From the NCBI GenBank assembly GCA_964016885.1, contig OZ024743.1, forward strand, positions 290,904,001 to 290,968,000: a stretch of DNA of 64,000 bases. Direction: 5' to 3'. Position 1 is the stretch's first letter. Each line of letters starts with the position of its first letter. The translations under genes were made by a program, and so were the position numbers. The DNA is from Eledone cirrhosa. Its lineage: Eukaryota. This document shows positions 2,341-61,732 of the stretch, one piece after another. The notes under the pieces were generated by a model, which was not told the DNA's origin, did not search any database, and saw nothing but the letters and a program-made list of their open reading frames with translations.

Positions 2341-2347
<7 letters not shown>
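432..2347 (+). mobile_element. 5'-truncated Penelope-like element (RT + C-terminal GIY-YIG) with an inverted copy of its 3' end at the 5' side
   Basis: RT motifs GAAIG and YSRYVDD. EN-like YKGETARS..SVLYEH..H..RQISEA..LNRKNEW at ~1585-1830. Positions 488-521 are the reverse complement of the 3' terminus (~2317-2347). Both ends sit in (TA)n. Confidence 0.85.
521..1870 (+). pseudogene. PLE RT/GIY-YIG ORF, disrupted by stops and frameshifts
   Basis: ORF pieces 462-1085 and 1086-1271, plus an EN reading frame at ~1540-1870 with an internal TGA. Confidence 0.85.
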
Positions 2348-2391
<44 letters not shown>

Positions 2392-2397
<6 letters not shown>

Positions 2398-4500: not shown

Positions 4501-4850
4501 ATCAATCTAGCTGTCGTCTGTTCTACAGTGTGGATGTCATTCACTTCGCACAGAAGTTTTGTTCAAATTTATTGAGGAAATTTTGTGAGTTCAAACTTAA
4601 TTTTGATACAATTGTGTAGCTTGACCCTCCGTCTGAACTGTCAGGCGGTGGGTCAGCTCATCTTTACCCCTCCTAGAGGTGAAAAACCTGTTTTAAAAAA
4701 AATTTTGTGTAAAAAATTTCAATCGTCTAACAGAAATGTTAAACGCAGCGAACGAAAATAGTGGTGGGGGGGACAGCGGTAAGAGTTGTAAGCTCGCACG
4801 CTTTAGTCCTCCCTTCCTTCCCAACTAACGTCATAGAGAAGGAAGGAAAA

Positions 4851-6617
4851 ATGAAAATAAAAACGGACGAATCTGCGGAGAAAAAATTAAATGTCGAAAA
4901 CAACGAAGAAAAAAAATTTGAAAAATTGCATGACAATACTAATAACACAAACAAAGACACAACAAACAAAAAAATAACAGTTGAAAATAACATAATATCA
5001 GAAAACAAAGCAGACGACAAGATTTCATTTGCACAGAAAACAAAGAAATCTTTGACTTATATAGCGGAAAACATTTCAGATGTGGTACGAAGGATCACGG
5101 ACGCAAAACAATACATAAGTGAAGGTGAGAATGGTATTTTATTGGTAAAAATGCCTCAAGAATTCACGAAAGACATTGAAAGCCGAACGGTCAAGTTTCG
5201 GACCATCAACAACAGTACAAAAAAACCTGAACAGCCTTCTCAAGCAGATATCAAAACAGTACTCGCAGAAGTACTGAATGAAACAACTTTCATAAGAAAA
5301 GACAGACTGTATGGAAGCCTAGCAATTATCATGAAGAACGAATCGGCGGCAAAAAAATGTGCTTTGTCACCGATTCGTTCGAAAAATTTCACCTTTTATC
5401 CATCTTATATGGGGAAAAAAACTCAACGCATATGGCTGGATGCAATGATGCCAGATGTGGACTACTGCTGGCTCATAGCTGGCTTCATCGATCCAGTGAA
5501 TGACAACGTGATTTCCATTGGGAAAACCACAGGCAATGCGTTCAGTGGAACAGGTATAGAGCTGGTAGTACAAATGAAGCCTGAACGCATCGCCCAAATA
5601 CCCGACAGAATCCTATTAGAGGACCACGGGTATATAAACATTAGCGTGGAGGGGAGAAGGCCGTCCTGCCATATCTGTGCAGGCAGAGGGCACCTGAAGG
5701 CCGCTTGTCCCCAACTCAACAAAAAGAAAACCCTGCTACCAACACCAGCTCCACCACCACCACCACCACAACAGATAAACAAACAACAAAACTCAGTCCC
5801 ACCCAACCCGTCCCTCAGTAACACCACAACACCACCACAACACAAACAGTCACAACACATTACCCCAAAACAAAATACAGGCCCACCCAACCTCTCACTC
5901 AATAAAACAACACAACCACCGCAGACACAACACACAACACAGTCTAACATAGTGACATCCATCTCCCCCACAAAGAAAACCAACACGGAAACATTACCAG
6001 CAAACATACCTCTTCCCTCCAACACTGAAGATAACCCAACGAATTCGGAGGAAGAAACGGAGTCCTTCAGACAGATTAAAAGGAAAAAAAGAAAACATGT
6101 GCAAAACACACAAGGACAAACAACCCCCACCCAAATCGCAACACAATCTAACAAAACAGAAAACACCCCTCCAGCAACAAACAAAACCAAACCTGCCCCT
6201 CCCCTCTTCGAAACACTCACACCATCGGAAAAAAAGACATTACACTATACTTACATCAACAGAAACAATAATAAATTAAATGAACTCATATACAATAATC
6301 CTTCGGTACAAACCGAAGGTGTAAACTTTGTTTCATCAGAAAACCACCCACATTTAAAACTAATAAAAATCCCAATGAACCTCTACCAAAAACTAAAAAA
6401 GGATTTTAAGGAGGACGTAGGACCACCCTCTGTCAAACCCATAAACCGCGTCCTACTAAAAAGCTTTCCCCCTCCCCTTCCCCTCCCCAACACAACTCCA
6501 AACACCCCAACCCCACCACACACCGACGACCCCACACCACCACAAGACACCCCTTCACCCAACACCCCCGACCCCATGGAAGTCGTGCAACCCGAACCCC
6601 GGGAAGCGGAAAGGTAG
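4851..6617 (+). CDS. LINE ORF1p (gag-like, CCHC zinc knuckle, Pro/Thr-rich C-terminus)
   Basis: Open frame with the first in-frame ATG at 4851. CHICAGRGHLKAAC matches CX2CX4HX4C. It ends 33 bp upstream of ORF2. Confidence 0.88.
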   Translation: MKIKTDESAEKKLNVENNEEKKFEKLHDNTNNTNKDTTNKKITVENNIISENKADDKISFAQKTKKSLTYIAENISDVVRRITDAKQYISEGENGILLVKMPQEFTKDIESRTVKFRTINNSTKKPEQPSQADIKTVLAEVLNETTFIRKDRLYGSLAIIMKNESAAKKCALSPIRSKNFTFYPSYMGKKTQRIWLDAMMPDVDYCWLIAGFIDPVNDNVISIGKTTGNAFSGTGIELVVQMKPERIAQIPDRILLEDHGYINISVEGRRPSCHICAGRGHLKAACPQLNKKKTLLPTPAPPPPPPQQINKQQNSVPPNPSLSNTTTPPQHKQSQHITPKQNTGPPNLSLNKTTQPPQTQHTTQSNIVTSISPTKKTNTETLPANIPLPSNTEDNPTNSEEETESFRQIKRKKRKHVQNTQGQTTPTQIATQSNKTENTPPATNKTKPAPPLFETLTPSEKKTLHYTYINRNNNKLNELIYNNPSVQTEGVNFVSSENHPHLKLIKIPMNLYQKLKKDFKEDVGPPSVKPINRVLLKSFPPPLPLPNTTPNTPTPPHTDDPTPPQDTPSPNTPDPMEVVQPEPREAER

Positions 6618-6650
6618 GTCTCTACACTCTCCTTTGGCTCTGCCGCCCAC

Positions 6651-9600
6651 ATGGATGTGTTAAGAGTAGGATGTTTGAATGCACGTGGCCTGGGCTCAAC
6701 TTGGAAGCAAGCAAAGCTTCTAAATGACCTCAGGTCATGTAGTATAAATGTAATGGTTATCTGTGAGACTCGAATCAGCGTCATGCGGCAGCTGGCCCCC
6801 ACCTTCGATGACTTTGAGGTGCATGCATCTCTCTGTCAACCTGGAGGTGGGGGTGGGGTTGTCGTGCTGCTGCAAAAACACCTGGGTCTTGACGTACAGG
6901 TTGTGCACTCGGACCCGGAGGGTCGTTTGTTGGTGCTAGACGTTGGCAGTAGTGAAAGTGCGGCCTTGAGACTGGTCGACGTCTACTCCCCTTTCGGAGC
7001 TGAACGGCCCGACTTCTTCCAGCGTTTGGAGACTTTTCTGGGAACGTCGCGTTCCCTGCTTCTAGCGGGGGATTGGAATGACATCCTGGATGCACGTTGG
7101 GACTATGCAGGAGCATGTCCTAATAGAGGGGGGTGTAACAGCCTCAAGGGGTTACTCGACCGTTTTAACTTGGTCGATAGATATCGACTAGATTTTCCAA
7201 CTGTGCCTACCTGGACTTGGAGAAACCACAGTGGTCAATCTAGATCGTACTTAGATAGATTCTTAGTTAGAAGTAAGGATAGGGACATATTAAGCTGTCC
7301 AGAAATGCGCACGGTTGGCTACACGGATCACAAATTAGTGACCTGCGTGGTCAATCTCGAGAAAACACATAGACAGGGTCCCGGTTACTGGAAACTTAAT
7401 TTGTCTTTACCGGCAAAAGAGACTTACAGAAACCGGATTAGCAGATTAGTTAAGGAGAGGTTGACGGGTGCAATCGTCAACAACCGATGGTGGGCATCTC
7501 TCAAAAGAGAGATTAGAACAGAATCAATAAGTTATAGCAAGATGTTAGCTGCCAATAGGAATAGAAACGAGAAAGAATTAACAGGTAAATTAGAAGAGGC
7601 AATCAAGAGCGAAGATGTGGCCAGAGTGCTGGCATCGAGGACGGCCTTGAACCAGTTTTTCGATGCAAAGCATGAAGGCTGCGTCATTCGAAGTAAAATA
7701 CGTGCTCTAGGTAATGAGGGGGCCAAAGCCGTTGGATGGGCTCGCGTGACAGAAGCTAAAAGTGGAAATCGATCCACCATCCGGTCGTTGCAAGACGAAG
7801 ATGGACGAGTGATCCGGGAGCCTAAGCAGATGTGCGAGGCCTTTCAAAAGCACTTTGCCCGATTGTTCGGGGGAGGCGAGGGTCCGGGCCGGGGCGTGGA
7901 TTTCGGTCCATACCTCGACGGCCTGCCGCGTCTCTCGAACAAAGAGGCAGAGTCCTGCGAGGGACCAATCTCGGCTGATGAGATCGGAGATGCGCTGAGC
8001 CAATGCAGCAGACGCAAATCTCCAGGTCTTGATGGTATACCTTACGAACTTTATTTAGCAATGCCGGTCTTCTTCTCCGAACTCCTCGAAGCGGTCTACT
8101 GCAATTGGCAGCAGAACGAGAGAATTCCTTGTTCTGTAGCCAAGGGCGTAGTCACGCTGGTGAGGAAGGACGAGAACAAGGGGGATAGTATAAATAATTT
8201 TCGGCCCATAACCCTGCTAAACACAGAGTTAAAGATTTTGGCCAAGGTGTTAGCAAAGAGGTTGGCGCTTGTCGTGGGTGGCCTGGTGGGAGATGCGCAG
8301 ACATGTGCTATCCCATCCAGGTCCATTCACGATAACCTCCACCTCATGCGATACATCATAGAGAGGGTTGGCAACAAACCCGGCTTCGGTGGGGCCCTGA
8401 TCAACTTGGATCAGTCTAAGGCCTTCGATAGGGTCGACCATGGTTACCTGGATGCGGTGCTAGCGGCGGCTGGGTTCGGTCCTGTTTTCAGAGGCTGGAT
8501 CACTGCCCTACATAGCAACCACATCTGTTCTAGGATCAAGGTGAACGGCTACCTTTCGAAGCCGTTCGAAATCACACGATCCATTCGACAGGGGTGCCCT
8601 CTCTCCTCCCTTCTGTACGTATTGACTCTCGAGCCTTTACTGAGGAAGTTGGAGTTGTTGCAGGGTATCCCCCTGGAACCAGGATTGAGCAAAGCGGTGT
8701 CGGCCTACGCCGATGACGTAACAGTAATGGTATCAACCGACTCGGAGATCGAGGCGATCGGTACCTTACTGGAGGAGTACGAAAGGTTGTCAGGAGCGAA
8801 ACTGAACCGGGAAAAATCCATCGGGCTGCAACTCGGAACGTGGAGAGGCAAACCGATGCCTCCTGACGGTGTCGTCGGACACTGGACGGAGGGCCCGGTA
8901 AAGTTGCTTGGGGTCTGGTTTGGACCGGACCTCCAGGTGGAAAAGAACTGGAACGAGGTTACGAACAAGGTGTTTGCACTAACCCAGAAATGGGCCAAGT
9001 GTAAGCTGTCCCTAAAAGGCCGGGCGGAGGTGGCGAACATTTACATAGCGTCCGTCACTTACTACCGCCTGACTGTCGTGCCTTGCCCTAAGGAAACACT
9101 CACCACCATGGAACGCATGCTCTTCCAATTTCTTTGGAAGAAGCGTCCTCCTATGGTGAGAAGATCCATCTGCTGCCAACAACCTTCGAAAGGAGGTCTG
9201 GGGATGCCGTGGTTGATGATGCGTAGGCACGCATTAAGGCTACGGCACCTACAGGTATTCCTCACTGGTCAACCGGTGTGGGCCCCGTTCGTGAAACGAG
9301 CCTTTCCGAGACTCGTCTCACTCACCGAGCTACAGTCCTGGGTCAAACAAAGATCCGGAAAACTGGGAGACTGGCACACTGAGTGTGCTCAGGCGCTCAG
9401 GGCTCTCTGGCAAGCGGGCCGGGCCATCGGTGGAGAATCCACCTCATCATTCTATAGAGGGCTGGTGGCTAGCAGGGGCGATGACACCCTTGGAGAGTCG
9501 CTGGACATGGAAGAAGACGAACTGGCCAGCCTGTTCGGTAGGACTTTCGGCCCAGGACCAATGGACAACTTCCAGAAGTCACTGGCCTGGCAGTGCTACC

Positions 9601-10088
9601 GAGGGGCTCTACCCGTTCGAGAGAGGCTCTACAGACACGGGCGCCCGGGCAGGGATCCCTCAAAAAAGATTTGCCCTAGATGCGTGCGTCACGAAGAAAC
9701 CGTGGCGCACGCATTGGTGCAATGTCCGGGCGTGGCTGATCTGTGGGGCTACGCCGAACAACTGCTGTCGCGGGTGGCGCCGATTAAATTGACCGCCGAG
9801 TCCGTGATGACAATCAAACCGCCTCCCCTCTTCACAAAGGAAGCAAAGGCGGTTTTTCTGTGCGTAATAGCCATGTTGAAAGAGGTTGTTTGGTGGACAC
9901 GATTGAAAGGTCTGAGGTCAGGCAACTTCCTCTCTAGCCATAGTCTGGTCTACTTCTTCCGATATCACTTCGGAAGAAGGATAAGAATGGAGAGAGAGGT
10001 GCTTGGCCACAGGCAGTTTTATGAAAGGTGGGTGATAGTGGCGAGAATGGCTCGTGTAAATGGGCCTTCTCTGTATACCATCCTGTAG
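6651..10088 (+). CDS. LINE ORF2p: APE endonuclease + reverse transcriptase + C-terminal zinc finger (1145 aa)
   Basis: APE motifs LNARGL, ICET, GDWN, YLDRF, TDH. RT motifs KSPGLDG, FRPITLLN, DQSKAFDRV, RQGCPLS, YADD. C-terminal CPRC..ETVAHALVQC. Confidence 0.97.
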   Translation: MDVLRVGCLNARGLGSTWKQAKLLNDLRSCSINVMVICETRISVMRQLAPTFDDFEVHASLCQPGGGGGVVVLLQKHLGLDVQVVHSDPEGRLLVLDVGSSESAALRLVDVYSPFGAERPDFFQRLETFLGTSRSLLLAGDWNDILDARWDYAGACPNRGGCNSLKGLLDRFNLVDRYRLDFPTVPTWTWRNHSGQSRSYLDRFLVRSKDRDILSCPEMRTVGYTDHKLVTCVVNLEKTHRQGPGYWKLNLSLPAKETYRNRISRLVKERLTGAIVNNRWWASLKREIRTESISYSKMLAANRNRNEKELTGKLEEAIKSEDVARVLASRTALNQFFDAKHEGCVIRSKIRALGNEGAKAVGWARVTEAKSGNRSTIRSLQDEDGRVIREPKQMCEAFQKHFARLFGGGEGPGRGVDFGPYLDGLPRLSNKEAESCEGPISADEIGDALSQCSRRKSPGLDGIPYELYLAMPVFFSELLEAVYCNWQQNERIPCSVAKGVVTLVRKDENKGDSINNFRPITLLNTELKILAKVLAKRLALVVGGLVGDAQTCAIPSRSIHDNLHLMRYIIERVGNKPGFGGALINLDQSKAFDRVDHGYLDAVLAAAGFGPVFRGWITALHSNHICSRIKVNGYLSKPFEITRSIRQGCPLSSLLYVLTLEPLLRKLELLQGIPLEPGLSKAVSAYADDVTVMVSTDSEIEAIGTLLEEYERLSGAKLNREKSIGLQLGTWRGKPMPPDGVVGHWTEGPVKLLGVWFGPDLQVEKNWNEVTNKVFALTQKWAKCKLSLKGRAEVANIYIASVTYYRLTVVPCPKETLTTMERMLFQFLWKKRPPMVRRSICCQQPSKGGLGMPWLMMRRHALRLRHLQVFLTGQPVWAPFVKRAFPRLVSLTELQSWVKQRSGKLGDWHTECAQALRALWQAGRAIGGESTSSFYRGLVASRGDDTLGESLDMEEDELASLFGRTFGPGPMDNFQKSLAWQCYRGALPVRERLYRHGRPGRDPSKKICPRCVRHEETVAHALVQCPGVADLWGYAEQLLSRVAPIKLTAESVMTIKPPPLFTKEAKAVFLCVIAMLKEVVWWTRLKGLRSGNFLSSHSLVYFFRYHFGRRIRMEREVLGHRQFYERWVIVARMARVNGPSLYTIL

Positions 10089-11987: not shown

Positions 11988-12956
11988 TGTTTAATCATTA
12001 TAATTATTTGAATGCAATCGAGCAGTCCTTCATGCATATGTTGTTATTATGAGAACGGTATTCTTAGATGAAATCCGATTTAGTTATATGCTGCCGGCAG
12101 GATAAAACACACGTCCTTCTGCTTGTGTGTCCAGCAAACTCAGAATTCGAACATGGTGTGCAGAGACCCGAGACAAATTCCAATATATTTAGCGGGATGC
12201 GCTTACGACTCAACCAATTCAACACATTTAACATATCCAGGCGAAAATGTTTCGAGGGTTATTCCTTGTCCTATTTTGAGATATATATTTTCCTTTTGCA
12301 TATATTGGGACCAGGAAGATGAGCTTCGAAATCATCTTCCATTTTCAATTTATTTAATATTGATGTGCTTTAGATATTTTTTTCTAGAATAATTCTTTTT
12401 CAGTGTCCATGCTGGGCGACCATTAATATATATCCATATATAATTATTAATGGTTTTGATCTTAATAGTGTCGTTACTGTTCATTACTGCTGTTATGTTG
12501 GAAATAATAGCGATATTACGGCAGTTGTTCATAATATACCAATTCTTCATAATTTCCTTCCCTCGTCTGCGAAGCGGCAAGTTAACATTAGAATTATTAT
12601 CCGACAATGCAGATACGCAAATCTGTGTTATAATGAAAACAATTTATTTTGTAAAGACATAAACAACTAATAATTATTGATATTTATAGGCATACATGGG
12701 TAACAATACAGAAATATAAACCAAAGAAAAATAATACGAAAGACACAACACACTCAGAATATATAACTTACATGACAAACATAAATATAGCAGACAAGTG
12801 AGATGGTTGTTTTAATATTGTCCCTCAAATGGCAAATTGGCTGGTAGTAGTAGTATAAGTATGACAGAAGACGAAACAAAGCAGGAGGAGATATGATGCT
12901 AAGGAGTAAAGAATTACGAAGGCGGGGGAAATTACCAGGATCAGGATAATACAAAT

Positions 12957-13075
12957 AATTGTTTCTACTTTTGGCACAAGGCCAGCAATTGTCTGTGTGT
13001 ATTACTGGTACTTTATTTTATCGACCCCTTAAGGATGAAAGGCAAAGTTAACCTCGGCGGGTTTTGAACTCAGTC
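12957..13075 (-). mobile_element. tRNA-derived SINE, partial copy in tandem with the next copy
   Basis: Reverse complement of the 3' two-thirds of the SINE at 21609-21800. Confidence 0.85.
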
Positions 13076-13089
13076 CGTATAATACAAAT

Positions 13090-13279
13090 AATTGTTTCTA
13101 CTTTAGGCACAAGGCCAGCAATTACCCAGTGCATTACTGGTACTTTATTTTATCGACCCCGTAAGGATGAACGGCAAAGTCAACCTCGGCGGGATTTGAA
13201 CTCAGATCGTAAAGGGACGTAACTATGCTGAAAGCATGGCGTCCGACCCTCTACCGATACTGCCAATCCACCGCCCCTC
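13090..13279 (-). mobile_element. tRNA-derived SINE, full length
   Basis: On the minus strand: A box TGGCAGTATCGG, B box GAGTTCAAATCC, central TTGCCGTTCATCCTTACGGGGTCGATAAAATAAAGTACCAG. Confidence 0.9.
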
Positions 13280-22262: not shown

Positions 22263-22366
22263 ACGTTGCTGAATAAACAACAAATACATAACGTTGCTGA
22301 ATAAACAAGAAATATATAACGTTGCTGAATAAACAACAAATATATAACGTTGCTGAATAAACAACA
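22263..22366. repeat. 28-bp minisatellite, ~3.7 copies (ACGTTGCTGAATAAACAACAAATATATA)
   Basis: Units start at 22263, 22291, 22319 and 22347. Confidence 0.9.
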
Positions 22367-23246
22367 CATTTATATTGAGGTTAAATATGTTTCAATCTCA
22401 CTTGGATTGTGTAACGTTCATATTACGTTTAACAGAAATTGCAATTTAATTGCAATTGACTTATTTTCTATACAAAATATTTACTTATGAATATTTATTT
22501 ATGACTGACCGAAGCCTCTAGGACAAGGAGATGTAATATACTAAATTCAATACAATATAGTTGTTCACATCGATGTTCTATTAATATGGTTAAGATGAAT
22601 AGCACAGGTGAATAGAGAAAGAATTGTGATCTAAACTCTGGTAGCCGACGAAGCTTAATTCGGGGATGTAATCGATTGAAATATCTGAAATATTTGTAGA
22701 ACGTAGATATTTCAGGAAAAAGCATGGTATAGGAATCAGATGATTGTGACCAGTAGATGACTTCGCCCTTTAGGTGAAGTTAATTCTAGTTTGACCATTG
22801 AACATTAGTTTAGAAAGGGTAGTATTAACAACAAAAAAAAAACAAAGATATATGTGTATAAATACTATTAAATAAGTAAAACATTTTACAGGGAGATTAT
22901 ATAGTAGTTAATATAAATTCTAAATTCATTAATATTAACGGGTATGCCAATCGTTCATGTTATTTCAAATGGGAATATTATATCGCATAATAAACTAACA
23001 GAATTAATTATAGCGATAATCCATCTTTTGAAAAAAGTTATATATATATATAAACAGAGAGAGAAGGAGAGAGACAGAGAGAGAGAGTGAGAGAAATGTG
23101 AAAAATCCCGTCGCGGCGCCAAGGGGTTTCGGCTTGTGTGTTCAGCGATGATATCTGAACAATCTACATTTCCCCATGTATCGAGTAGTTACATAATTAG
23201 TGGTCTCCACTGTCTAAGCTTCGCATACTCTCTCACTCTCCTCTCT

Positions 23247-25499: not shown

Positions 25500-25577
25500 A
25501 TTATTATTAAATGATTTGAACATCTGAAACTACTTCGCTTTTCCTTATTCTATATATATATATATATATATACAGTG

Positions 25578-26474
25578 GCTTCCTTGTTCAATCATCTTAC
25601 CAGAAGCCTGACATTATTTACGTAGGCGGACGGTACTTGATTTAGGAGCCGCAGAAACCTATATACTGGATTTTACCAACCTTCCAGGGGTCCGGTTAAA
25701 TTTTCAATACCCGAATTACTTGATCGTTTTTTTTGCTATACGAATGATTGTTTAACCATCAGCTCAGTGTGTTTGACCTTTAACGTTTGTTATAGCTCTT
25801 GTTCATCTGAAACATTGAGCACTTGCCGCACATCTCGGATGTTGTTTTTCGTTATTTCGTGGGCCGAAATGCGAATCTCGATAATTTATGTTTGCATTAT
25901 TCTCCAGACTCTAGCTATTGACCAGTTAATTTTCTTGACTTTTAGTTGATTCTATTGACTGATGAATAGCTTATGTTAATTTTAACCCCTCTGTAGAGAA
26001 CTCTATTCGATTTGTGATGTTTTGGCATTCTTGCAAAAGTATACACAACTGAATTCATTCGCCTGATATAGAGGTTGCCTCCCTTGCCGATCCCCACGTG
26101 GGGTCAGCAATAGTCAGTCCTTGTATTAACATTGAACTAAAACCTGTTGATAAAGTTTGCTTCCTTGTTCAATCATCTTACCAGAAGCCTGACATTATTT
26201 ATGTAGGCGGACGGTACTTAATTTAGGAGCCGCAGAAAGCCATATACAGGATTTTACCAACCTTCTAGGGGTCCGGGTAAATTTTCAATACCCGAAATAC
26301 TTGATCATTTTTTTTGTTATACGAATGATTGTTTAACCATCGTCTCACTGTGTTTGGCCTTTAACGTTTGTCATAGCTCTGGTTCATCTGAATCATTGAG
26401 CACTTGCCGCACATCTCGGAGGTTGTTTTTCGTTATTTCGTGGGCCGAAATGCGAATCTCGATAATTTATGTTT

Positions 26475-26475
<1 letters not shown>
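25578..26475 (+). repeat. Terminally redundant non-coding element: 317-bp direct repeats, 581-bp period
   Basis: 25578-25894 is repeated at 26159-26475. Flanked by (TA)n. A diverged homologue lies at 42743-43408. Confidence 0.8.
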
Positions 26476-26571
<96 letters not shown>

Positions 26572-42742: not shown

Positions 42743-43405
42743 ATCGAGTGCTTAGCTGCCCTCTCCTGATTGTATATCGTTAGCTCGGCCACAGCCAAAA
42801 CTTCGATGTTATTGAACTTCCATTTGTTTTATTATCTCCTAGACTTAATGATTAATTAATTAATTTAATTAGATAATTCTATTGATTGGTTAATTATTTA
42901 TGTTTGTTTAATAACGCCTAGTCGAGAGCTTTATTCGGTTTGTGGAATGGAATTTATTCCTTTGTTTACAATTTGAATCAGACCGCCAAAACAGGGGGTT
43001 ACTTCCCTTTGGGAAAACCACGTCACCGCCAGCAGTTTTACTGCTACGTTTCACTACCCGCTTGAGGCACAGAACGGACGCCTGTTGATAAAGAGAATCC
43101 ACTATTCGATCATCCAAAACCCAAAACTTGAACGCTGTGAAAGTGGAATTGTATGTTTCGGATTCATACAAACATATCGGAGATATTGCATAGTATCGAT
43201 GAAATAGTCCAGGTTTGTCAAAATATCCTGAGTTGGTTTTCTCGTTGATTTGGTTCATGTGGCTGGCTTACTGGTCGCAGTCTTCAATTTATCAAGCTTC
43301 CTAACGTATGTTATTTCAACCTTATCGAGTGCTTTGCTGCACTTTCCGGTTTGTATATCGTTAGCTTGGCCACAGCCAAAACTTCGATTGTACTGAACTT
43401 TTATT

Positions 43406-43408
<3 letters not shown>
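42743..43408 (+). repeat. Diverged member of the 581-bp terminally redundant family
   Basis: 42743-~42827 is repeated at 43324-~43408 (period 581). Collinear similarity to 25578-26475. Ends at (TA)n. Confidence 0.7.
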
Positions 43409-43458
<50 letters not shown>

Positions 43459-55983: not shown

Positions 55984-58425
55984 TTAATTAGGTTTATAAT
56001 ATTTAAATGTTTTTTTTAGTTTATGATTACACGATATAATTAATTCCTGTCTTTTATTTAATAAGATATCCCTAGACTTCATTATTTCAAATAGTTCTTG
56101 GGAACATAATCTACATTCCTTTCTATTATTTTGATAAGGGGTGGCTCTTTTGAGCACACTCCAGGTCAAATCATATTTTATATTTTTATTTTTATAACTA
56201 TTGATTTTTTCTGCTAGAGATGTTGTATTAGCCAGTGCGGCATTTTTAAAGCTATGTTTGTGGGTATTATACCTTGTCTTAAAATTGTTAGAGGTAGCTC
56301 CTATATATGAGCAAATAGAATCTTTAGTTTTAACATTACATTTATAGACTATGTTGTTAACAAGACAATTCCCTTTTAATGGGCAGTTTGTTTTGTTTCT
56401 ACAGTTACATCCTTTCGTTAATTCTGTATTTGAGGAGATATTATTGTTAATTTGATGTACTGGTGGTATACTTATGGTTTTCTTACATTTATATGCATTA
56501 TATGCACTTATATTTTGTTTTATGTTATTTGTTGTAGAGTATGAGAATTTAACTGTATACCTATTTAAGATTTGATGGTATTTGTGGTTTGGCGGGAAGT
56601 TTTTCTCAAGGATATAAAAAAATTTTTTAGCAATATTATCCTTAACTTGTAAATTAAAAGGAGCATTATACCAAGTAACTCGTCTATTACGGTTTCTATG
56701 TTGTTTATTATTTTTATTATTTTTATATGTTGTATCATGATTTTTACTAGGAGGATTAATGTTAATGATCTCACCACAACTATTTTTAGTTATATTTGTA
56801 GATTTAGGTGTTTTATCTTTTTTATTAGGAGTTTTATTATTAATATTTATTATAGTCGTATGATGAGTAGTTTTTTGAGGGTTACTATACTTTATATTAG
56901 AAGATTTAGTATTTTGGGGTATACTGTGGGTGGCATTTAGGTGTGTACTTTTCATTTGGTGTTTGTTGGTAATATTATGCTGTATGCTTTCAGTATTTTT
57001 AGTAGAAGGTATATACTCTAATCTATTTTTGTGGCCACTTCTATCTAGAGCTTCATTATAAAAGGTCGCATTTTTATCAAATACATCTTGGTTAGAAGAA
57101 AGGTTAGAAATTCTAAGTGATATATTATATGCAAGGTTTTTAAGGATAGATTTAGGGTGATTAGATTGTGAGTGTATGTAATGTAAGTTTTGGTTAGGTT
57201 TATGGTAAGGTTGGTATATACCCGTAGCTAAATCTAAAGTTATATCTAGGAAATTTACTACTTTACTTGTTTTTTCAAAAGTAATATTAAGATTATAATA
57301 GTCTTTAAGGAAAGTTCTAATATGCTTTTTGTTTTTTTCGATTTCTGAAAGGCTAAGGTTGTTAGAAAGAAGAAGACAGTCATCACGATATAAACCACCT
57401 TTGAGGTGGGGAAAAGAGGCATTTATGTTGAAAAGGAGAAAGAGGCCCACAAGATCAGTAATTTGGGCGGAATCGCTTGAACCCATAGTAATATCAAAAA
57501 GATTACTGTAAGTGTTTCTGGTCCAGTATTCATTCTGAAATTCAATAAGTGTTTGTCTAGCATGTGTAATAATGTTAATGTCATCCGAAGTTAAATTAGA
57601 TCTATTTTTAGCAAATATTAATGCTTTGTTCAGGAGTATGGGTGATATAGAAGAATAGTAATTATCTATATCAAATTGTAGGAAAGAAGCAGAAGATTTA
57701 CACCTAATATTTTTAAACCAATTAATTACCTGGGAGGTGTTTTCCCAGAGTGGTAAAATAACGTATTTTCTTATTTGTGGGATGACTCTATCTAAAATTT
57801 TTTTGCTAATTATTCCAATATCTGATTTGGAGGGACATATAAGTCTAATAGAAGGATTAGAGTTAAAGTTAGATTTGTGATCTTTCAGGTTGAAGTGTGG
57901 ACTTTTCAATGCCAAAGGTTCAGTTCTATCTTCAATATTTAGTTTTTTTACTATGTTGTGTGTTTTGTTGTTGATGTTGGTGAGTGACACATTATTAGAT
58001 TTTTTATAATTTTTTCTGAGTTCTTTATATATGAACTCATTATAATGTTCAATATCCATATGATACAAGTTACCAGTTTTGTCCGAGTGGACATGGATTT
58101 TTTTAGACTTTTTTAGGTCCAATAGGGTAGAATCAAGGTCCTTTTGAAAGACGGATTTATACTTTTTAAATTTGAGGTGTTTAATTAAATTAAAAAGGTC
58201 TTTCTCGAAGTCTTCAAGTAAAAAGTTGTGTGGTGGATTCTTGTAAGTGTTGAAATCATACATATATTTCCGATCTGCTTGTTTAGATTTTCTATCGAAG
58301 TGGTAGGCTCTCCATCTAACCCTTCTGATAAAATTATTAGTTTTCTGAATCATAAGGAGTAAGAAGTCGTCCTTAGAAGGTATTGGTATGTTTTTTAAGG
58401 AGGTTCCTAAATATTGTTTTTCCAT
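55984..58425 (-). CDS. PLE reverse transcriptase + GIY-YIG endonuclease (813 aa from the first ATG; tentatively Nematis-like)
   Basis: QFDIDNYYSSI, MGSSDSAQ, GLYRDD, NFLD, YHKP, CNCRNKTNCPLKGNC, IVYKC..YIGAT..FKTRYNTH, CRLC..E..LN..CNH. The ORF-track start at 58446 is a TTG. Confidence 0.95.
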   Translation of the reverse strand: MEKQYLGTSLKNIPIPSKDDFLLLMIQKTNNFIRRVRWRAYHFDRKSKQADRKYMYDFNTYKNPPHNFLLEDFEKDLFNLIKHLKFKKYKSVFQKDLDSTLLDLKKSKKIHVHSDKTGNLYHMDIEHYNEFIYKELRKNYKKSNNVSLTNINNKTHNIVKKLNIEDRTEPLALKSPHFNLKDHKSNFNSNPSIRLICPSKSDIGIISKKILDRVIPQIRKYVILPLWENTSQVINWFKNIRCKSSASFLQFDIDNYYSSISPILLNKALIFAKNRSNLTSDDINIITHARQTLIEFQNEYWTRNTYSNLFDITMGSSDSAQITDLVGLFLLFNINASFPHLKGGLYRDDCLLLSNNLSLSEIEKNKKHIRTFLKDYYNLNITFEKTSKVVNFLDITLDLATGIYQPYHKPNQNLHYIHSQSNHPKSILKNLAYNISLRISNLSSNQDVFDKNATFYNEALDRSGHKNRLEYIPSTKNTESIQHNITNKHQMKSTHLNATHSIPQNTKSSNIKYSNPQKTTHHTTIININNKTPNKKDKTPKSTNITKNSCGEIININPPSKNHDTTYKNNKNNKQHRNRNRRVTWYNAPFNLQVKDNIAKKFFYILEKNFPPNHKYHQILNRYTVKFSYSTTNNIKQNISAYNAYKCKKTISIPPVHQINNNISSNTELTKGCNCRNKTNCPLKGNCLVNNIVYKCNVKTKDSICSYIGATSNNFKTRYNTHKHSFKNAALANTTSLAEKINSYKNKNIKYDLTWSVLKRATPYQNNRKECRLCSQELFEIMKSRDILLNKRQELIISCNHKLKKTFKYYKPN

Positions 58426-58790
58426 TGTGATATGGATGATGGACAATTGAAAGAGCTCAACTAAATGTATATGGGTTTACAAAATCATACATATATATAT
58501 ATGTTTATACATAAATATAAAATTAATACACACATACAGTACAAAAATACGAATATTTCCGTGAAAATAGGAGCAAAATTATGTAGATAAATCTACCAAG
58601 AGTTTACGGTAGTGTCCAATCCGTATGAAGAACTCAATGTATTCCGGATATCATGGAAAGAAGAGATGTAATGAAAATCCACTTTCGGTGAAAGATAAAC
58701 GGTATACAGAGTCAAGATAAAATATTAAACAAATAATGAACAAACAATTCCTTATATTAAACAAAAAAAGTTCACTATCAATAAATATAC

Positions 58791-58945
58791 TTCATTATTT
58801 CTGAAGACGGCGTATATATGAGTTAGGTATGTATATTTAATCTTGATAATTTGTATAATTTTGTATAATTTTGTACATAGATCTGTTAAATATGCATACC
58901 AATTATAACACATATATGCCCTAGAAACGATCGTTAAATAGTGAA
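58791..58945 (+). ncRNA. Type I hammerhead ribozyme, predicted GUU cleavage after 58935
   Basis: 10-bp stem I TTCATTATTT/AAATAGTGAA, core CTGAAGA, ~115-nt stem II (GGCGTATAT/ATATATGCC and GGTATGTATATTTAA/TTAAATATGCATACC), GAAA-CGATCG-TT. Confidence 0.88.
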
Positions 58946-59290
58946 CTTTTTTTGTTTAATATAAGGAATTGTTTGTTCATTATTTGTTTAATATTTTATC
59001 TTGACTCTGTATACCGTTTATCTTTCACCGAAAGTGGATTTTCATTACATCTCTTCTTTCCATGATATCCGGAATACATTGAGTTCTTCATACGGATTGG
59101 ACACTACCGTAAACTCTTGGTAGATTTATCTACATAATTTTGCTCCTATTTTCACGGAAATATTCGTATTTTTGTACTGTATGTGTGTATTAATTTTATA
59201 TTTATGTATAAACATATATATATATGTATGATTTTGTAAACCCATATACATTTAGTTGAGCTCTTTCAATTGTCCATCATCCATATCACA

Positions 59291-61732
59291 ATGGAAAAAC
59301 AATATTTAGGAACCTCCTTAAAAAACATACCAATACCTTCTAAGGACGACTTCTTACTCCTTATGATTCAGAAAACTAATAATTTTATCAGAAGGGTTAG
59401 ATGGAGAGCCTACCACTTCGATAGAAAATCTAAACAAGCAGATCGGAAATATATGTATGATTTCAACACTTACAAGAATCCACCACACAACTTTTTACTT
59501 GAAGACTTCGAGAAAGACCTTTTTAATTTAATTAAACACCTCAAATTTAAAAAGTATAAATCCGTCTTTCAAAAGGACCTTGATTCTACCCTATTGGACC
59601 TAAAAAAGTCTAAAAAAATCCATGTCCACTCGGACAAAACTGGTAACTTGTATCATATGGATATTGAACATTATAATGAGTTCATATATAAAGAACTCAG
59701 AAAAAATTATAAAAAATCTAATAATGTGTCACTCACCAACATCAACAACAAAACACACAACATAGTAAAAAAACTAAATATTGAAGATAGAACTGAACCT
59801 TTGGCATTGAAAAGTCCACACTTCAACCTGAAAGATCACAAATCTAACTTTAACTCTAATCCTTCTATTAGACTTATATGTCCCTCCAAATCAGATATTG
59901 GAATAATTAGCAAAAAAATTTTAGATAGAGTCATCCCACAAATAAGAAAATACGTTATTTTACCACTCTGGGAAAACACCTCCCAGGTAATTAATTGGTT
60001 TAAAAATATTAGGTGTAAATCTTCTGCTTCTTTCCTACAATTTGATATAGATAATTACTATTCTTCTATATCACCCATACTCCTGAACAAAGCATTAATA
60101 TTTGCTAAAAATAGATCTAATTTAACTTCGGATGACATTAACATTATTACACATGCTAGACAAACACTTATTGAATTTCAGAATGAATACTGGACCAGAA
60201 ACACTTACAGTAATCTTTTTGATATTACTATGGGTTCAAGCGATTCCGCCCAAATTACTGATCTTGTGGGCCTCTTTCTCCTTTTCAACATAAATGCCTC
60301 TTTTCCCCACCTCAAAGGTGGTTTATATCGTGATGACTGTCTTCTTCTTTCTAACAACCTTAGCCTTTCAGAAATCGAAAAAAACAAAAAGCATATTAGA
60401 ACTTTCCTTAAAGACTATTATAATCTTAATATTACTTTTGAAAAAACAAGTAAAGTAGTAAATTTCCTAGATATAACTTTAGATTTAGCTACGGGTATAT
60501 ACCAACCTTACCATAAACCTAACCAAAACTTACATTACATACACTCACAATCTAATCACCCTAAATCTATCCTTAAAAACCTTGCATATAATATATCACT
60601 TAGAATTTCTAACCTTTCTTCTAACCAAGATGTATTTGATAAAAATGCGACCTTTTATAATGAAGCTCTAGATAGAAGTGGCCACAAAAATAGATTAGAG
60701 TATATACCTTCTACTAAAAATACTGAAAGCATACAGCATAATATTACCAACAAACACCAAATGAAAAGTACACACCTAAATGCCACCCACAGTATACCCC
60801 AAAATACTAAATCTTCTAATATAAAGTATAGTAACCCTCAAAAAACTACTCATCATACGACTATAATAAATATTAATAATAAAACTCCTAATAAAAAAGA
60901 TAAAACACCTAAATCTACAAATATAACTAAAAATAGTTGTGGTGAGATCATTAACATTAATCCTCCTAGTAAAAATCATGATACAACATATAAAAATAAT
61001 AAAAATAATAAACAACATAGAAACCGTAATAGACGAGTTACTTGGTATAATGCTCCTTTTAATTTACAAGTTAAGGATAATATTGCTAAAAAATTTTTTT
61101 ATATCCTTGAGAAAAACTTCCCGCCAAACCACAAATACCATCAAATCTTAAATAGGTATACAGTTAAATTCTCATACTCTACAACAAATAACATAAAACA
61201 AAATATAAGTGCATATAATGCATATAAATGTAAGAAAACCATAAGTATACCACCAGTACATCAAATTAACAATAATATCTCCTCAAATACAGAATTAACG
61301 AAAGGATGTAACTGTAGAAACAAAACAAACTGCCCATTAAAAGGGAATTGTCTTGTTAACAACATAGTCTATAAATGTAATGTTAAAACTAAAGATTCTA
61401 TTTGCTCATATATAGGAGCTACCTCTAACAATTTTAAGACAAGGTATAATACCCACAAACATAGCTTTAAAAATGCCGCACTGGCTAATACAACATCTCT
61501 AGCAGAAAAAATCAATAGTTATAAAAATAAAAATATAAAATATGATTTGACCTGGAGTGTGCTCAAAAGAGCCACCCCTTATCAAAATAATAGAAAGGAA
61601 TGTAGATTATGTTCCCAAGAACTATTTGAAATAATGAAGTCTAGGGATATCTTATTAAATAAAAGACAGGAATTAATTATATCGTGTAATCATAAACTAA
61701 AAAAAACATTTAAATATTATAAACCTAATTAA
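59291..61732 (+). CDS. PLE reverse transcriptase + GIY-YIG endonuclease (protein identical to the 55984-58425 copy)
   Basis: The ORF-track translations of the two copies are identical. Confidence 0.95.
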   Translation: MEKQYLGTSLKNIPIPSKDDFLLLMIQKTNNFIRRVRWRAYHFDRKSKQADRKYMYDFNTYKNPPHNFLLEDFEKDLFNLIKHLKFKKYKSVFQKDLDSTLLDLKKSKKIHVHSDKTGNLYHMDIEHYNEFIYKELRKNYKKSNNVSLTNINNKTHNIVKKLNIEDRTEPLALKSPHFNLKDHKSNFNSNPSIRLICPSKSDIGIISKKILDRVIPQIRKYVILPLWENTSQVINWFKNIRCKSSASFLQFDIDNYYSSISPILLNKALIFAKNRSNLTSDDINIITHARQTLIEFQNEYWTRNTYSNLFDITMGSSDSAQITDLVGLFLLFNINASFPHLKGGLYRDDCLLLSNNLSLSEIEKNKKHIRTFLKDYYNLNITFEKTSKVVNFLDITLDLATGIYQPYHKPNQNLHYIHSQSNHPKSILKNLAYNISLRISNLSSNQDVFDKNATFYNEALDRSGHKNRLEYIPSTKNTESIQHNITNKHQMKSTHLNATHSIPQNTKSSNIKYSNPQKTTHHTTIININNKTPNKKDKTPKSTNITKNSCGEIININPPSKNHDTTYKNNKNNKQHRNRNRRVTWYNAPFNLQVKDNIAKKFFYILEKNFPPNHKYHQILNRYTVKFSYSTTNNIKQNISAYNAYKCKKTISIPPVHQINNNISSNTELTKGCNCRNKTNCPLKGNCLVNNIVYKCNVKTKDSICSYIGATSNNFKTRYNTHKHSFKNAALANTTSLAEKINSYKNKNIKYDLTWSVLKRATPYQNNRKECRLCSQELFEIMKSRDILLNKRQELIISCNHKLKKTFKYYKPN

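What the first reader, a model, noticed from the sequence alone, without database searches (positions are those of the whole stretch)
25578..26475. Unexplained non-coding element with a conserved 581-nt terminally redundant unit (homologue at 42743-43408)
Seen: two loci each consist of more than one unit (about 1.55 and 1.15 units) with the same 581-bp period. Both end at approximately the same homologous position against (TA)n, while their left ends differ. They are strongly diverged but collinear, with shared blocks ATTCTATTGA, GAGA(A/G)CT(C/T)TATTCG(A/G)TTTGTG, GGTT(G/A)C(C/T)TCCCTT, CCACGT and CCTGTTGATAAAG. I found no conserved ORF and no canonical HHR. Inference: a fixed 3' end, variable 5' truncation beyond unit length and conserved size are what reverse transcription of a circular or tandem RNA would leave. 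This suggests a retrozyme-like non-autonomous element mobilised by PLE machinery, possibly with an unrecognised ribozyme. The exact equality of the periods may be partly coincidental.
Basis: partly seen in the sequence, partly recalled or inferred. Interest (0 to 1): 0.75.

Follow-up and report, generated by a model that had tools for sequence, protein, structure and literature searches.

The report
Octopus-type hammerhead retroelement in TA repeats
The two loci are decayed copies of a very abundant non-coding jumping element whose ~581-base unit carries a predicted self-cutting hammerhead RNA and is likely copied into TA repeats by Penelope-like enzymes: a known kind of element in a form that standard ribozyme searches miss.

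Summary
Both loci are longer-than-unit, head-to-tail copies with period 581 that end at homologous 3' ends against (TA)n. They belong to a superfamily with thousands of copies in this 3-Gb genome. In a 3'-end-seeded sample of 44 fam1 elements, 21 are under one unit, 3 about one unit and 20 over one unit. One array has 4.87 units.

Helix II covaries across at least 8 subfamilies. The core pattern occurs 1,237 times in the genome against 0 for the reversed control. Rfam does not detect it.

In both families, 5' ends of copies pile up just 3' of the predicted cut site: fam1 8 of 44 (P=5e-4), fam2 11 of 30 (P=2e-8). This suggests cleavage in vivo.

Hydra-clade Penelope-like elements, one of them in this window, share the architecture, the (TA)n target, a short 3'-terminal motif and, in one family, a U3-A8 hammerhead. 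No autonomous element with shared sequence was found. Cleavage, RNA circles and mobilisation are untested.

Verdict: a new member of a known kind (retrozyme-like, Penelope-dependent element).

The parts
25545..25572 (.). (TA)n remnant upstream of the fam1 element (target microsatellite)
   Evidence: Read. 21 of 30 fam1 loci have a TA repeat within 30 nt upstream and 30 of 30 downstream, against 10.8% of 600 background 30-mers.
25574..25895 (+). fam1 upstream 5'-truncated partial unit (unit positions about 260-581), a pseudo-LTR-like repeat
   Evidence: 94% to the full unit. It starts in the second 5'-end hot spot at about 256-265. It contains only the 3' half of the hammerhead (GAAA 25654-25657; predicted cut 25692|25693).
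25896..26476 (+). fam1 full 581-nt unit
   Evidence: The unit-to-unit junction ...TTTGT|ATTATTC is nearly invariant. Of 28 unit starts examined, 20 are preceded by ATGTTTGT, 4 by one-base variants of it, and 4 by (TA)n with only 0-5 nt of the unit's 3' end.
26142..26278 (+). Predicted hammerhead domain of the fam1 unit. Helix I 26142-26146 pairs with 26274-26278. Core UUGAUAA is 26147-26153. The helix II domain is 26155-26233. GAAA is 26235-26238. Helix III is 26238-26272. The predicted cut is 26273|26274. This copy is decayed: an insertion or substitution in the helix II 5' strand, and C15.2 changed to G at 26239.
   Evidence: The script motif is intact in 21 of 30 fam1 units but not in the window copy.
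26274..26294 (+). Hairpin (CGGGUA...UACCCG) that competes with helix I for the strand 3' of the cut site; a possible conformational switch
   Evidence: MFE folds. fam2 has CAGG...CCUG at the same place, with one compensatory pair. Inference.
26477..26569 (.). (TA)n at the fixed 3' end of fam1
42743..42827 (+). fam2 upstream partial unit (unit positions 497-581)
42828..43408 (+). fam2 full unit, from an older family (copies 78-86% identical to it)
43080..43214 (+). Predicted hammerhead domain of the fam2 unit. Helix I 43081-43084 pairs with 43210-43213. Core is 43085-43091. The GAAA position is 43169-43172, with G12 mutated to C. The predicted cut is 43209|43210. This copy is decayed.
   Evidence: (7 of 18 fam2 units intact; this one is not).
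43409..43455 (.). GTG(TA)n at the fam2 3' end
55984..61732 (.). Head-to-head pair of a Hydra-clade Penelope-like element (830-aa ORFs at 55984-58476 on - and 59240-61732 on +); a candidate source of the copying enzyme, not part of the repeat itself

Best explanation
These loci are old copies of a high-copy, non-coding retroelement superfamily that lies in (TA)n microsatellites as 5'-truncated head-to-tail arrays with a fixed 3' end. Each unit carries a predicted Penelope-type hammerhead ribozyme (U3-A8 core) that likely cuts the RNA in vivo, and the RNA is likely copied into DNA by Penelope-like (Hydra-clade) reverse transcriptase/endonuclease.

Shown: the architecture, the copy number, the TA target, the conserved three-way junction with covarying helix II, and the pile-up of 5' ends next to the predicted cut site.

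Inferred mechanism:
1. Longer-than-unit or circular RNA is made from arrays.
2. The hammerhead cuts at GUC|C (unit 379|380 in fam1, 382|383 in fam2).
3. The GIY-YIG endonuclease nicks a TA repeat.
4. The freed DNA end anneals to the TA-like patch at the unit junction (...UUUGU|AUUAUU...) and primes cDNA synthesis there, which fixes the 3' end.
5. Synthesis runs to the 5' end of a cut RNA, giving the ~200-nt copies, or on through uncut or ligated junctions, giving 1.1- to 4.9-unit copies.
6. The 5' side is joined by microhomology to the TA repeat.
For: Architecture
- Of 30 full-length fam1 loci, 25 have an adjacent 5'-truncated upstream copy that ends at the unit end.
- Of the other five, four keep 2-13 nt of the unit's 3' end and one (L002) none.
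- All 30 end at ...ATGTTT(G)(T) followed by (TA)n.
- A sample seeded on the 3' end gives 44 elements of 25-1,115 nt: 21 under one unit, 3 about one unit, 20 over one unit.
- One array has 4.87 units, which are 95.7-98.3% alike but only 94.3-96.0% like other copies.

Hammerhead
- RNAalifold pairs CCUG with CRGG next to GGUC.
- A script descriptor finds helix I of 5 bp, helix II of 8 bp and helix III of 3-4 bp in 21 of 30 fam1 and 7 of 18 fam2 units, against 1 of 2,000 shuffles.
- On alignment A3, 91.9% of cells pair, against 17-47% when partners are slid.
- The core pattern has 1,237 exact genome matches, against 0 for the reversed control.
- Across at least 8 subfamilies, helix II is 96.8% paired, with 4 of 8 pairs changed on both sides; slid controls give 28-46%.
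- Cervera & de la Pena 2014 (PMC4209133, passages read) describe PLE hammerheads with a U3-A8 core, a helix I of 4-5 bp, a helix II of 7-8 bp and an unpaired base 5' of stem II.

In vivo cut
- fam1 5' ends: 8 of 44 lie within 25 nt 3' of the site (expected 1.9, P=5e-4), and one starts exactly at C380.
- fam2 5' ends: 11 of 30 (expected 1.26, P=2e-8), with 0 of 30 in the 155 nt before it.

Penelope link
- The window's 830-aa ORF has YRDD, DKT, CxCX5C and GIY-YIG-like motifs, as described for the Hydra clade (Craig et al. 2021, PMC8557442, section 11 read).
- 53 of 54 scored copies are open.
- Its 6,054-nt unit forms the same partial tandems, with fixed 3' ends in TA repeats in 14 of 14 copies.
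- Another Hydra-type element (L288) has a U3-A8 minimal hammerhead in its 3' UTR, with 128 exact matches against 0 control.
- 3' ends share YATTT(GT): fam2 CCATTTGT, fam1 ATGTTTGT, the 6-kb PLE TTATTTGT, and the min-HHR family TTTCATTT.
Against: - No Rfam hammerhead model matches at E up to 10, even on an intact copy given alone.
- Position 10.1/11.1 is an A-A mismatch, and helices II and III carry about 70-nt and 35-nt insertions, so activity could be low or absent.
- The structure was derived from the same sequences used to count pairs. The pattern fixes the core, so core conservation in that set is by selection.
- The 5'-end pile-up is spread over about 25 nt and lies in an AT-containing stretch, so a transcription start, an RT stop or a microhomology hot spot could contribute.
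- fam1 has other hot spots, at about 256-265 and 465-483, that the cut does not explain.
- No autonomous element shares more than 6-8 terminal bases with fam1 or fam2.
- The two abundant Hydra-type families examined show no hammerhead by my scans or, for their representative loci L061 and L236/L226, by Rfam.
- Repeats within one element are barely more alike than repeats of different elements (3.5% against 3.9% divergence, 20 elements). That test does not separate rolling-circle copying from other routes.
Confidence: 0.72

Rival explanations
1. It is the same Penelope-dependent non-autonomous element, but the hammerhead-like junction is a structural relic or a protein-binding fold that does not cut. 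Under this reading the 5'-end pile-ups mark a transcription start, a reverse-transcriptase stop at the structured domain, or microhomology joining to the TA repeat.
For: No Rfam match. There is an A-A mismatch at 10.1/11.1 and the helices carry large inserts. The ends are spread over about 25 nt, and most start at TA-compatible bases joined to (TA)n. fam1 has further hot spots at about 256-265 and 465-483. PLE minimal hammerheads cut poorly in vitro (PMC4209133, passage read).
Against: All invariant hammerhead positions are kept, with the U3-A8 swap known to occur in PLE hammerheads, across subfamilies whose helix II sequences have turned over. In fam2 there are 0 of 30 ends in the 155 nt before the site and 11 of 30 in the 25 nt after it, several of them inside the following hairpin rather than at its 3' foot. 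One fam1 copy starts exactly at C380.
Confidence: 0.17
2. It is a SINE-like element copied by a LINE (non-LTR) enzyme that targets TA repeats, with tandem units arising later by unequal crossing-over.
For: The element is short and non-coding, with a fixed 3' end, 5' truncation and a microsatellite at the 3' end. The window holds a LINE with endonuclease and RT domains at 6618-10088.
Against: There is no tRNA, 5S or 7SL head, and the unit contains a T8 run. The partial-tandem layout, with a near-invariant seamless junction at unit starts that follow another unit, is the Penelope hallmark (PMC8557442, passages read). 20 of 44 elements exceed one unit, which is too many for later duplication. The hammerhead motif fits PLEs, and TA repeats flank 21 of 30 copies on both sides.
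Confidence: 0.06
3. It is a dispersed satellite or segmental duplication with no RNA intermediate.
For: Arrays of up to 4.87 units exist.
Against: Thousands of dispersed copies on many contigs have unrelated flanks. The copies have a polar structure, with a fixed 3' end and variable 5' end. Insertion is into TA repeats.
Confidence: 0.02

Closest known systems
Metazoan non-LTR retrozymes (Cervera & de la Pena 2020, NAR, PMC7229834; abstract and passages read)
   Same: Non-coding, AT-rich (GC 0.38-0.39), head-to-tail units each holding a type-I hammerhead. They coexist with Penelope-like elements, which that paper names as likely mobilisers. That paper also proposes tandem cDNA from multimeric or circular RNA.
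   Different: The unit is 581 nt rather than about 170-400 nt. Most insertions are 0.2-2 units rather than long arrays. The hammerhead has a U3-A8 core and large inserts in helices II and III, and is not the canonical form with loop-loop contacts. Insertion is strictly into (TA)n with one fixed 3' end. RNA circles are untested here.
Hammerheads in pseudo-LTRs of Penelope-like elements (Cervera & de la Pena 2014, MBE, PMC4209133; passages read)
   Same: U3-A8 core covariation, a short helix I (5 bp), a long helix II (8 bp), an unpaired base 5' of stem II, and a location in the repeated terminal part of a partial tandem.
   Different: Helix III is a stable 3-4 bp stem plus a distal hairpin, not a 1-2 bp stem with a palindromic loop, so no dimer is needed on paper. 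Helix II closes a ~70-nt branched domain. The carrier has no ORF.
Non-autonomous Chlamys PLEs such as MRC1 (Craig et al. 2021, MBE, PMC8557442; passages and section 11 read)
   Same: Non-coding derivatives that make pseudo-LTRs and multicopy head-to-tail insertions. The TA-repeat targeting is as described there for the Naiad and Hydra clades.
   Different: Those share their 3' ends with autonomous families. Here only a 6-8 nt terminal motif is shared with any autonomous element examined. Chlamys and Naiad lack canonical hammerheads.
Plant LTR retrozymes (Cervera et al. 2016, PMC4918200; search listing and abstract only)
   Same: Non-autonomous, with hammerheads in direct terminal repeats, and a similar size class (600-1000 nt circles).
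   Different: Those have type III hammerheads, true LTRs with PBS/PPT, 4-bp target duplications and Gypsy-type mobilisation. PBS/PPT were not examined here.

Membership tests
Hammerhead ribozyme (type I) | Conserved core: C3-U4-G5-A6-N7-G8-A9, G12-A13-A14, A15.1-U16.1, H17 | tested here: met
   The core reads UUGAKAA / GAAA / U-C, with the C3-G8 pair replaced by U3-A8. That covariation is reported for PLE hammerheads (PMC4209133). Seen. The pattern has 1,237 genome matches against 0 control.
Hammerhead ribozyme (type I) | Three helices around the core, supported by covariation | tested here: met
   Helix II: 96.8% of cells paired, 4 of 8 pairs changed on both sides, slid controls 28-46%. Helices I and III: 98.5% and 92.3% paired, with only one-sided changes or none. 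The structure was derived from these same sequences.
Hammerhead ribozyme (type I) | Watson-Crick 10.1-11.1 pair closing helix II | tested here: not met
   A and A face each other at 10.1/11.1 in all subfamilies listed. An unpaired base 5' of stem II is known for PLE hammerheads, but an extra base on the 3' side is not mentioned in the passages read.
Hammerhead ribozyme (type I) | Recognised by the Rfam hammerhead covariance models | tested here: not met
   No hammerhead family at E up to 10 in the window locus, in fam1/fam2 loci, or in an intact copy given alone.
Hammerhead ribozyme (type I) | Site-specific self-cleavage | not testable with these tools
   Indirect evidence only: 5' ends of genomic copies pile up 3' of the predicted site.
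Metazoan non-LTR retrozyme | Head-to-tail units, dimers to multimers, each with a hammerhead | tested here: met
   20 of 44 elements exceed one unit. There is a 4.87-unit array and further arrays by spacing. However, 21 of 44 are under one unit and lack a complete hammerhead.
Metazoan non-LTR retrozyme | Unit of about 170-400 nt, low GC | tested here: not met
   The unit is 581 nt. GC is low as required (0.377-0.387).
Metazoan non-LTR retrozyme | Expressed as linear and circular RNA of unit length | not testable with these tools
   No RNA run is listed for this sequence.
Penelope-like element, non-autonomous derivative | Partial tandem (pseudo-LTR) with heavy 5' truncation and a fixed 3' end | tested here: met
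   The definition is from PMC8557442.
Penelope-like element, non-autonomous derivative | Insertion into (TA)n, as for the Hydra, Naiad and Neptune clades | tested here: met
   TA repeat downstream in 30 of 30 and upstream in 21 of 30 loci, against a 10.8% background. Literature.
Penelope-like element, non-autonomous derivative | Sequence shared with an autonomous family, at least at the 3' end | tested here: not met
   No BLAST or covariance-model match to the 6-kb Hydra-type PLE, a second Hydra-type family, 30 GIY-YIG loci or the min-HHR family. Only YATTT(GT) is shared at the very end. The search was limited to the top-scoring copies the genome tool returns.
SINE (Pol III head, LINE-derived tail) | tRNA, 5S or 7SL-derived 5' head | tested here: not met
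   No such Rfam match at E up to 10. A T8 run lies inside the unit.

The most novel reading that the evidence does not exclude
This is a cephalopod retrozyme superfamily with an expanded ~135-nt hammerhead (U3-A8 core, branched helix II, long helix III) that current ribozyme models cannot see. The genome itself records its self-cleavage as thousands of ~200-nt copies that begin at the cut site. Its fixed 3' end is not an RNA end but the place where a nicked TA repeat anneals to a TA-like patch inside a multimeric or circular RNA. That would be a general rule for how Hydra-type Penelope enzymes start copying. A hairpin that competes with helix I would switch the ribozyme off in the finished monomer.
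Probability: 0.35. Interest if true: 0.68.

Novelty: new member of a known kind. Interest (0 to 1): 0.52.

Why it matters
Octopus genomes are rich in short repeats of unclear origin. This finding assigns one large group, at least several thousand copies in many subfamilies, to the hammerhead/Penelope system.

It also shows that covariance-model screens undercount hammerheads whose helices carry large inserts.

The coincidence between the predicted cut site and the 5' ends of genomic copies offers a sequence-only way to ask whether a genomic ribozyme works in vivo.

Finally, the two-sided TA context, together with alternative 3' ends at TA-like patches, gives a testable model of how Penelope-type enzymes choose where to start. 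That mechanism is still poorly understood.

Tried and rejected
- RNA evidence: no RNA holder is listed for the element. The three runs that hold parts of it behave like genomic DNA contigs and show no starts or ends. Expression and circles could not be addressed.
- Rfam at E up to 10 on the window locus, on family loci and on an intact copy gave only low-complexity miRNA/snoRNA noise.
- A strict hammerhead descriptor with CUGNNGA cores found nothing on either strand. The reading CUGUUGA with A6 changed to U, suggested by earlier notes on other octopus repeats, leaves helix I unpaired next to the cut site, so I rejected it in favour of the U3-A8 register.
- I first read the domain as a four-way junction from single-sequence folds. 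I gave that up once the alignment fold paired CCUG with CRGG.
- Search for an autonomous partner:
  - No similarity to the window's 6-kb PLE, a second Hydra-type family, 30 GIY-YIG loci or the min-HHR family.
- Repeats within an element versus between elements: 3.5% against 3.9% divergence, no fixed differences, 31 of 55 concordant polymorphic sites against 25.2 expected. This is not discriminating.
- The second Hydra-type family's 3' ends lay outside the fetched flanks.
- A possible Pol III or tRNA-like reading of the conserved 5' blocks was dropped for lack of any match.
- No structure prediction or complex prediction was needed.
Full report
**1. The observation**

- The repeat finder reports 25578-25877 and 26159-26458 (300 nt, 94%, spacing 581), and 42743-42827 and 43324-43408 (85 nt, 87%, spacing 581).
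- From the sequence, the fam1 element runs about 25574-26476: partial unit 25574-25895, full unit 25896-26476.
- The fam2 element runs 42743-43408: partial 42743-42827, full 42828-43408.
- Each ends against a TA microsatellite.
- The two units are distant homologues: 63.8% over 207 nt, E=1.4e-11. They are collinear along the whole unit at roughly 44-66% identity per 50 columns.
- The equal period is partly coincidence. Other fam2 units are about 568-596 nt, and other subfamilies repeat every 595-601 nt.

**2. A family property, not a local oddity**

The window lies in a 3.0-Gb genome.
- The fam1 unit has at least 2,911 first-look candidates. The 40 that were scored are full length and about 94-96% identical.
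- fam2 has at least 3,444 candidates. The 40 scored are 78-86% identical, so it is an older family.
- Of 30 fam1 loci chosen for a full unit, 25 have an adjacent upstream copy that is 5'-truncated at a variable point and runs to the unit end. Of the other five, four keep 2-13 nt of the unit's 3' end and one (L002) none.
- The unit-to-unit junction is seamless and nearly invariant. Of 28 unit starts examined, 20 are preceded by ATGTTTGT, 4 by one-base variants of it, and 4 by (TA)n with only 0-5 nt of the unit's 3' end.
- All 30 end at ...ATGTTT(G)(T) followed by (TA)n. 21 of 30 also have a TA repeat just upstream, against 10.8% of 600 background 30-mers from the same loci. So the target is the TA repeat.
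- Flanks share no positionally consistent sequence, so the unit is not part of a larger element.
- Two samples seeded only on the last 65-90 nt give 44 distinct elements of 25-1,115 nt. Of these, 21 are under one unit, 3 about one unit and 20 over one unit. The tool chose which perfect matches to score, so the sample is not random, but the choice cannot depend on the 5' end.
- One array has a 5'-truncated unit plus four full units (2,812 nt) and the usual 3' end. Its units are 95.7-98.3% alike but only 94.3-96.0% like other copies.

**3. The ribozyme**

Standard searches were negative.
- Rfam gives no ribozyme at E up to 10 for the window locus, family loci or an intact copy alone.
- A strict descriptor also fails.

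Earlier notes of this scan on other octopus repeats mentioned a CUGUYGA motif, which made me re-examine the conserved block CCUGUUGAKAAAG. That register (A6 changed to U) leaves helix I unpaired. RNAalifold instead paired CCUG with the CRGG that follows GGUC. This gives a type-I hammerhead:
- helix I: ACCUG/CRGGU
- core: U3-U4-G5-A6-K7-A8-A9
- an unpaired A
- helix II of 8 bp, closing a ~70-nt domain
- A-GAAA
- helix III: A-CC(C)...(G)GG-U, with a distal hairpin
- C17, with the cut at GUC|C

Supporting counts:
- A script finds this motif at the same place in 21 of 30 fam1 and 7 of 18 fam2 units, on neither minus strand, and in 1 of 2,000 shuffles.
- On an alignment of 8 fam1 and 18 fam2 copies, 91.9% of cells pair, against 17-47% with slid partners.
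- A pattern made of the three core strands has 675+562 exact matches in the genome and 0+0 for the reversed control.
- The 30 loci kept show at least 8 subfamilies whose helix II differs yet still pairs. On 20 representatives, helix II is 96.8% paired, 4 of 8 pairs changed on both sides, one pair has four pair types, and slid controls give 28-46%.

Literature match: Cervera & de la Pena 2014 (PMC4209133, passages read) describe exactly this flavour in Penelope-like elements. Their features are a U3-A8 core instead of C3-G8, a helix I of 4-5 bp, a helix II of 7-8 bp and an unpaired base 5' of stem II.

Deviations here are an A-A at 10.1/11.1, large inserts in helices II and III, and a stable helix III.

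Both window copies are decayed.
- fam1: the helix II 5' strand is altered, and C15.2 is changed to G at 26239.
- fam2: G12 is changed to C at 43169.

**4. A genomic trace of cutting**

If the RNA is cut, cDNA should stop at the new 5' end.
- fam1: 8 of 44 elements begin within 25 nt 3' of the predicted site (380-404; expected 1.9; binomial P=5e-4), and 1 begins in the 25 nt before it. One copy (L110) begins exactly at C380.
- fam2: 11 of 30 begin at 383-407 (expected 1.26; P=2e-8), 2 in the 25 nt before, and none between 220 and 374.

Most of these copies are about 180-217 nt and join (TA)n at TA-compatible bases, so a few bases seem to be lost in joining.

Limits of this evidence:
- The windows were anchored on the independently predicted site, but the evidence remains indirect.
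- fam1 has other hot spots. One at about 256-265 has 5 of 44 in the seeded sample and includes the window copy's own start. Another lies at about 465-483. I cannot explain either.

**5. How copies longer than a unit arise**

The template must span the junction. Candidates are read-through RNA from arrays, RNA circles made after cutting, or repeated template jumps.
- The seamless junction, the 4.87-unit array with array-specific similarity and copies that start at the cut site yet run on through a second, uncut site (776-782 nt class) fit multimeric or circular templates with inefficient cutting.
- The within-element versus between-element test was not discriminating.
- The unit begins with a TA-like patch (AUUAUU; fam2 UUAUUAU) right after the 3' end. 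The 6-kb PLE has two alternative 3' ends, both at TA-like patches inside a continuous tandem template: 9 of 14 at unit position 332 and 5 of 14 at 469. From this I infer that the nicked TA repeat primes internally by annealing there. This step is inference.
- The strand 3' of the cut can pair either with helix I or in a local hairpin, which has one compensatory pair between the families. It may act as a switch. This too is inference.

**6. Who copies it**

- The window holds a head-to-head pair of 830-aa ORFs with no Pfam hit. They carry YRDD, DKT, CxCX5C and GIY-YIG-like motifs. Together with TA-repeat insertion, these motifs are the marks of the Hydra clade (Craig et al. 2021, PMC8557442, section 11 read in full).
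- 53 of 54 scored genomic copies are open and 99-100% identical.
- The unit is 6,054 nt, and copies are partial tandems ending in TA repeats in 14 of 14 cases.
- A second Hydra-type family (738-745 aa, period 4,011) is also abundant.
- Neither family shows similarity to fam1 or fam2, or a hammerhead, by my scans or, for their representative loci L061 and L236/L226, by Rfam.
- A third Hydra-type element turned up next to a divergent large-hammerhead copy (L288). It has the CxCX5C/GIY-YIG ORF end and, 340 nt downstream, a minimal U3-A8 hammerhead (GCCC/GGGC helix II, GUAC loop 3). That motif has 69+59 exact matches against 0 control.
- 6 of 13 loci with that motif end 90 nt later at ...TTTCATTT|(AT)n.
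- So U3-A8 cores, TA targets and a YATTT(GT) end are common to Hydra-type PLEs and to fam1/fam2 in this genome.
- At least 10,596 GIY-YIG candidates show that further PLE families exist. The 30 sampled share nothing with the unit.
- No autonomous relative by sequence was found. The genome tool scores only top candidates, so this is not proof of absence.

**7. Comparison and verdict**

The element works like a metazoan non-LTR retrozyme (PMC7229834, passages read) and like the non-autonomous PLE derivatives of Chlamys (PMC8557442).
- It meets the structural marks of both.
- It fails the retrozyme size range and the 'shared 3' end' mark.
- Its ribozyme meets the hammerhead core and helix criteria, but not the Rfam models or the 10.1-11.1 pair.
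- A 2026 preprint argues that vertebrate retrozymes derive from PLE pseudo-LTRs (10.64898/2026.07.22.740005, abstract only).
- A four-term search of the held papers (octopus, Penelope, non-autonomous, retrotransposon) returned three papers, and the one I opened does not describe this family (passages read). A search for retrozyme, Penelope-like and mollusc listed no title on cephalopods. Supplementary files were not opened and may hold cephalopod entries.

I file it as a new member of a known kind. Its points of interest are a hammerhead form that models miss and a sequence-only trace of cutting.

Noticed in passing
window 55984-58476 (-) and 59240-61732 (+), palindrome centre near 58858: Head-to-head pair of intact 830-aa ORFs of a Hydra-clade Penelope-like element (YRDD, DKT, CxCX5C, GIY-YIG-like; no Pfam hit). 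The family is very young: 53 of 54 scored genomic copies are open and 99-100% identical. Its unit is 6,054 nt with a ~3-kb 3' region containing microsatellite-like tracts.
   Followed up: partly
L061 unit positions 332 and 469: The 6-kb PLE uses two alternative 3' ends (9 and 5 of 14 copies). Both lie at TA-like patches upstream of the ORF of the next tandem unit, and both are followed by (TA)n. This suggests internal priming rather than a fixed RNA 3' end.
   Followed up: partly
fam1 unit positions about 256-265 and 465-483; window 25574: Two further 5'-end hot spots in fam1 that the hammerhead cut does not explain. The first lies inside the hammerhead core (5 of 44 seeded elements, plus the window copy). 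It could be a transcription start or a joining hot spot.
   Followed up: no
window 25896-26060 and 42828-42975 (alignment A1): The 5' third of the unit holds two hairpins kept by compensatory changes between fam1 and fam2 (9 of 32 predicted pairs changed on both sides). It also holds a conserved CACGTG (E-box-like) block. Their function is unknown; they may be promoter or RT-recognition elements.
   Followed up: partly
L288 (G000:C1:208277500-208281499), about 1300-3230: A divergent large-hammerhead element on the minus strand lies head-to-head with a 5'-truncated Hydra-type PLE on the plus strand. The PLE has the EN end of the ORF, a U3-A8 minimal hammerhead and a (TA)n 3' end. This could be a two-armed insertion using two different RNAs, or two independent hits in one microsatellite.
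   Followed up: partly
L290-L301: A short family has a U3-A8 minimal hammerhead (128 exact motif matches) that ends 90 nt later in (AT)n. It resembles the ~200-base TA-targeted octopus repeats noted earlier in this scan.
   Followed up: partly
G000:C7:78452867-78463066 and other loci: A second abundant Hydra-type PLE family with 738-745-aa intact ORFs and a tandem period of 4,011 nt. No hammerhead was found by Rfam at E up to 1.
   Followed up: partly
window 4743-10088 (+): LINE-like element: a 624-aa frame followed by a 1,156-aa frame with Exo_endo_phos, RVT_1 and zf-RVT domains.
   Followed up: no
window 12946-13205 and 22263-22387: Tandem repeats of period 132 (2 copies, 91%) and period 28 (about 4 copies) listed by TRF. 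A related 'ggcacaaggccagcaatt' motif recurs in flanks of several fam1 loci, so it is probably another common repeat.
   Followed up: no
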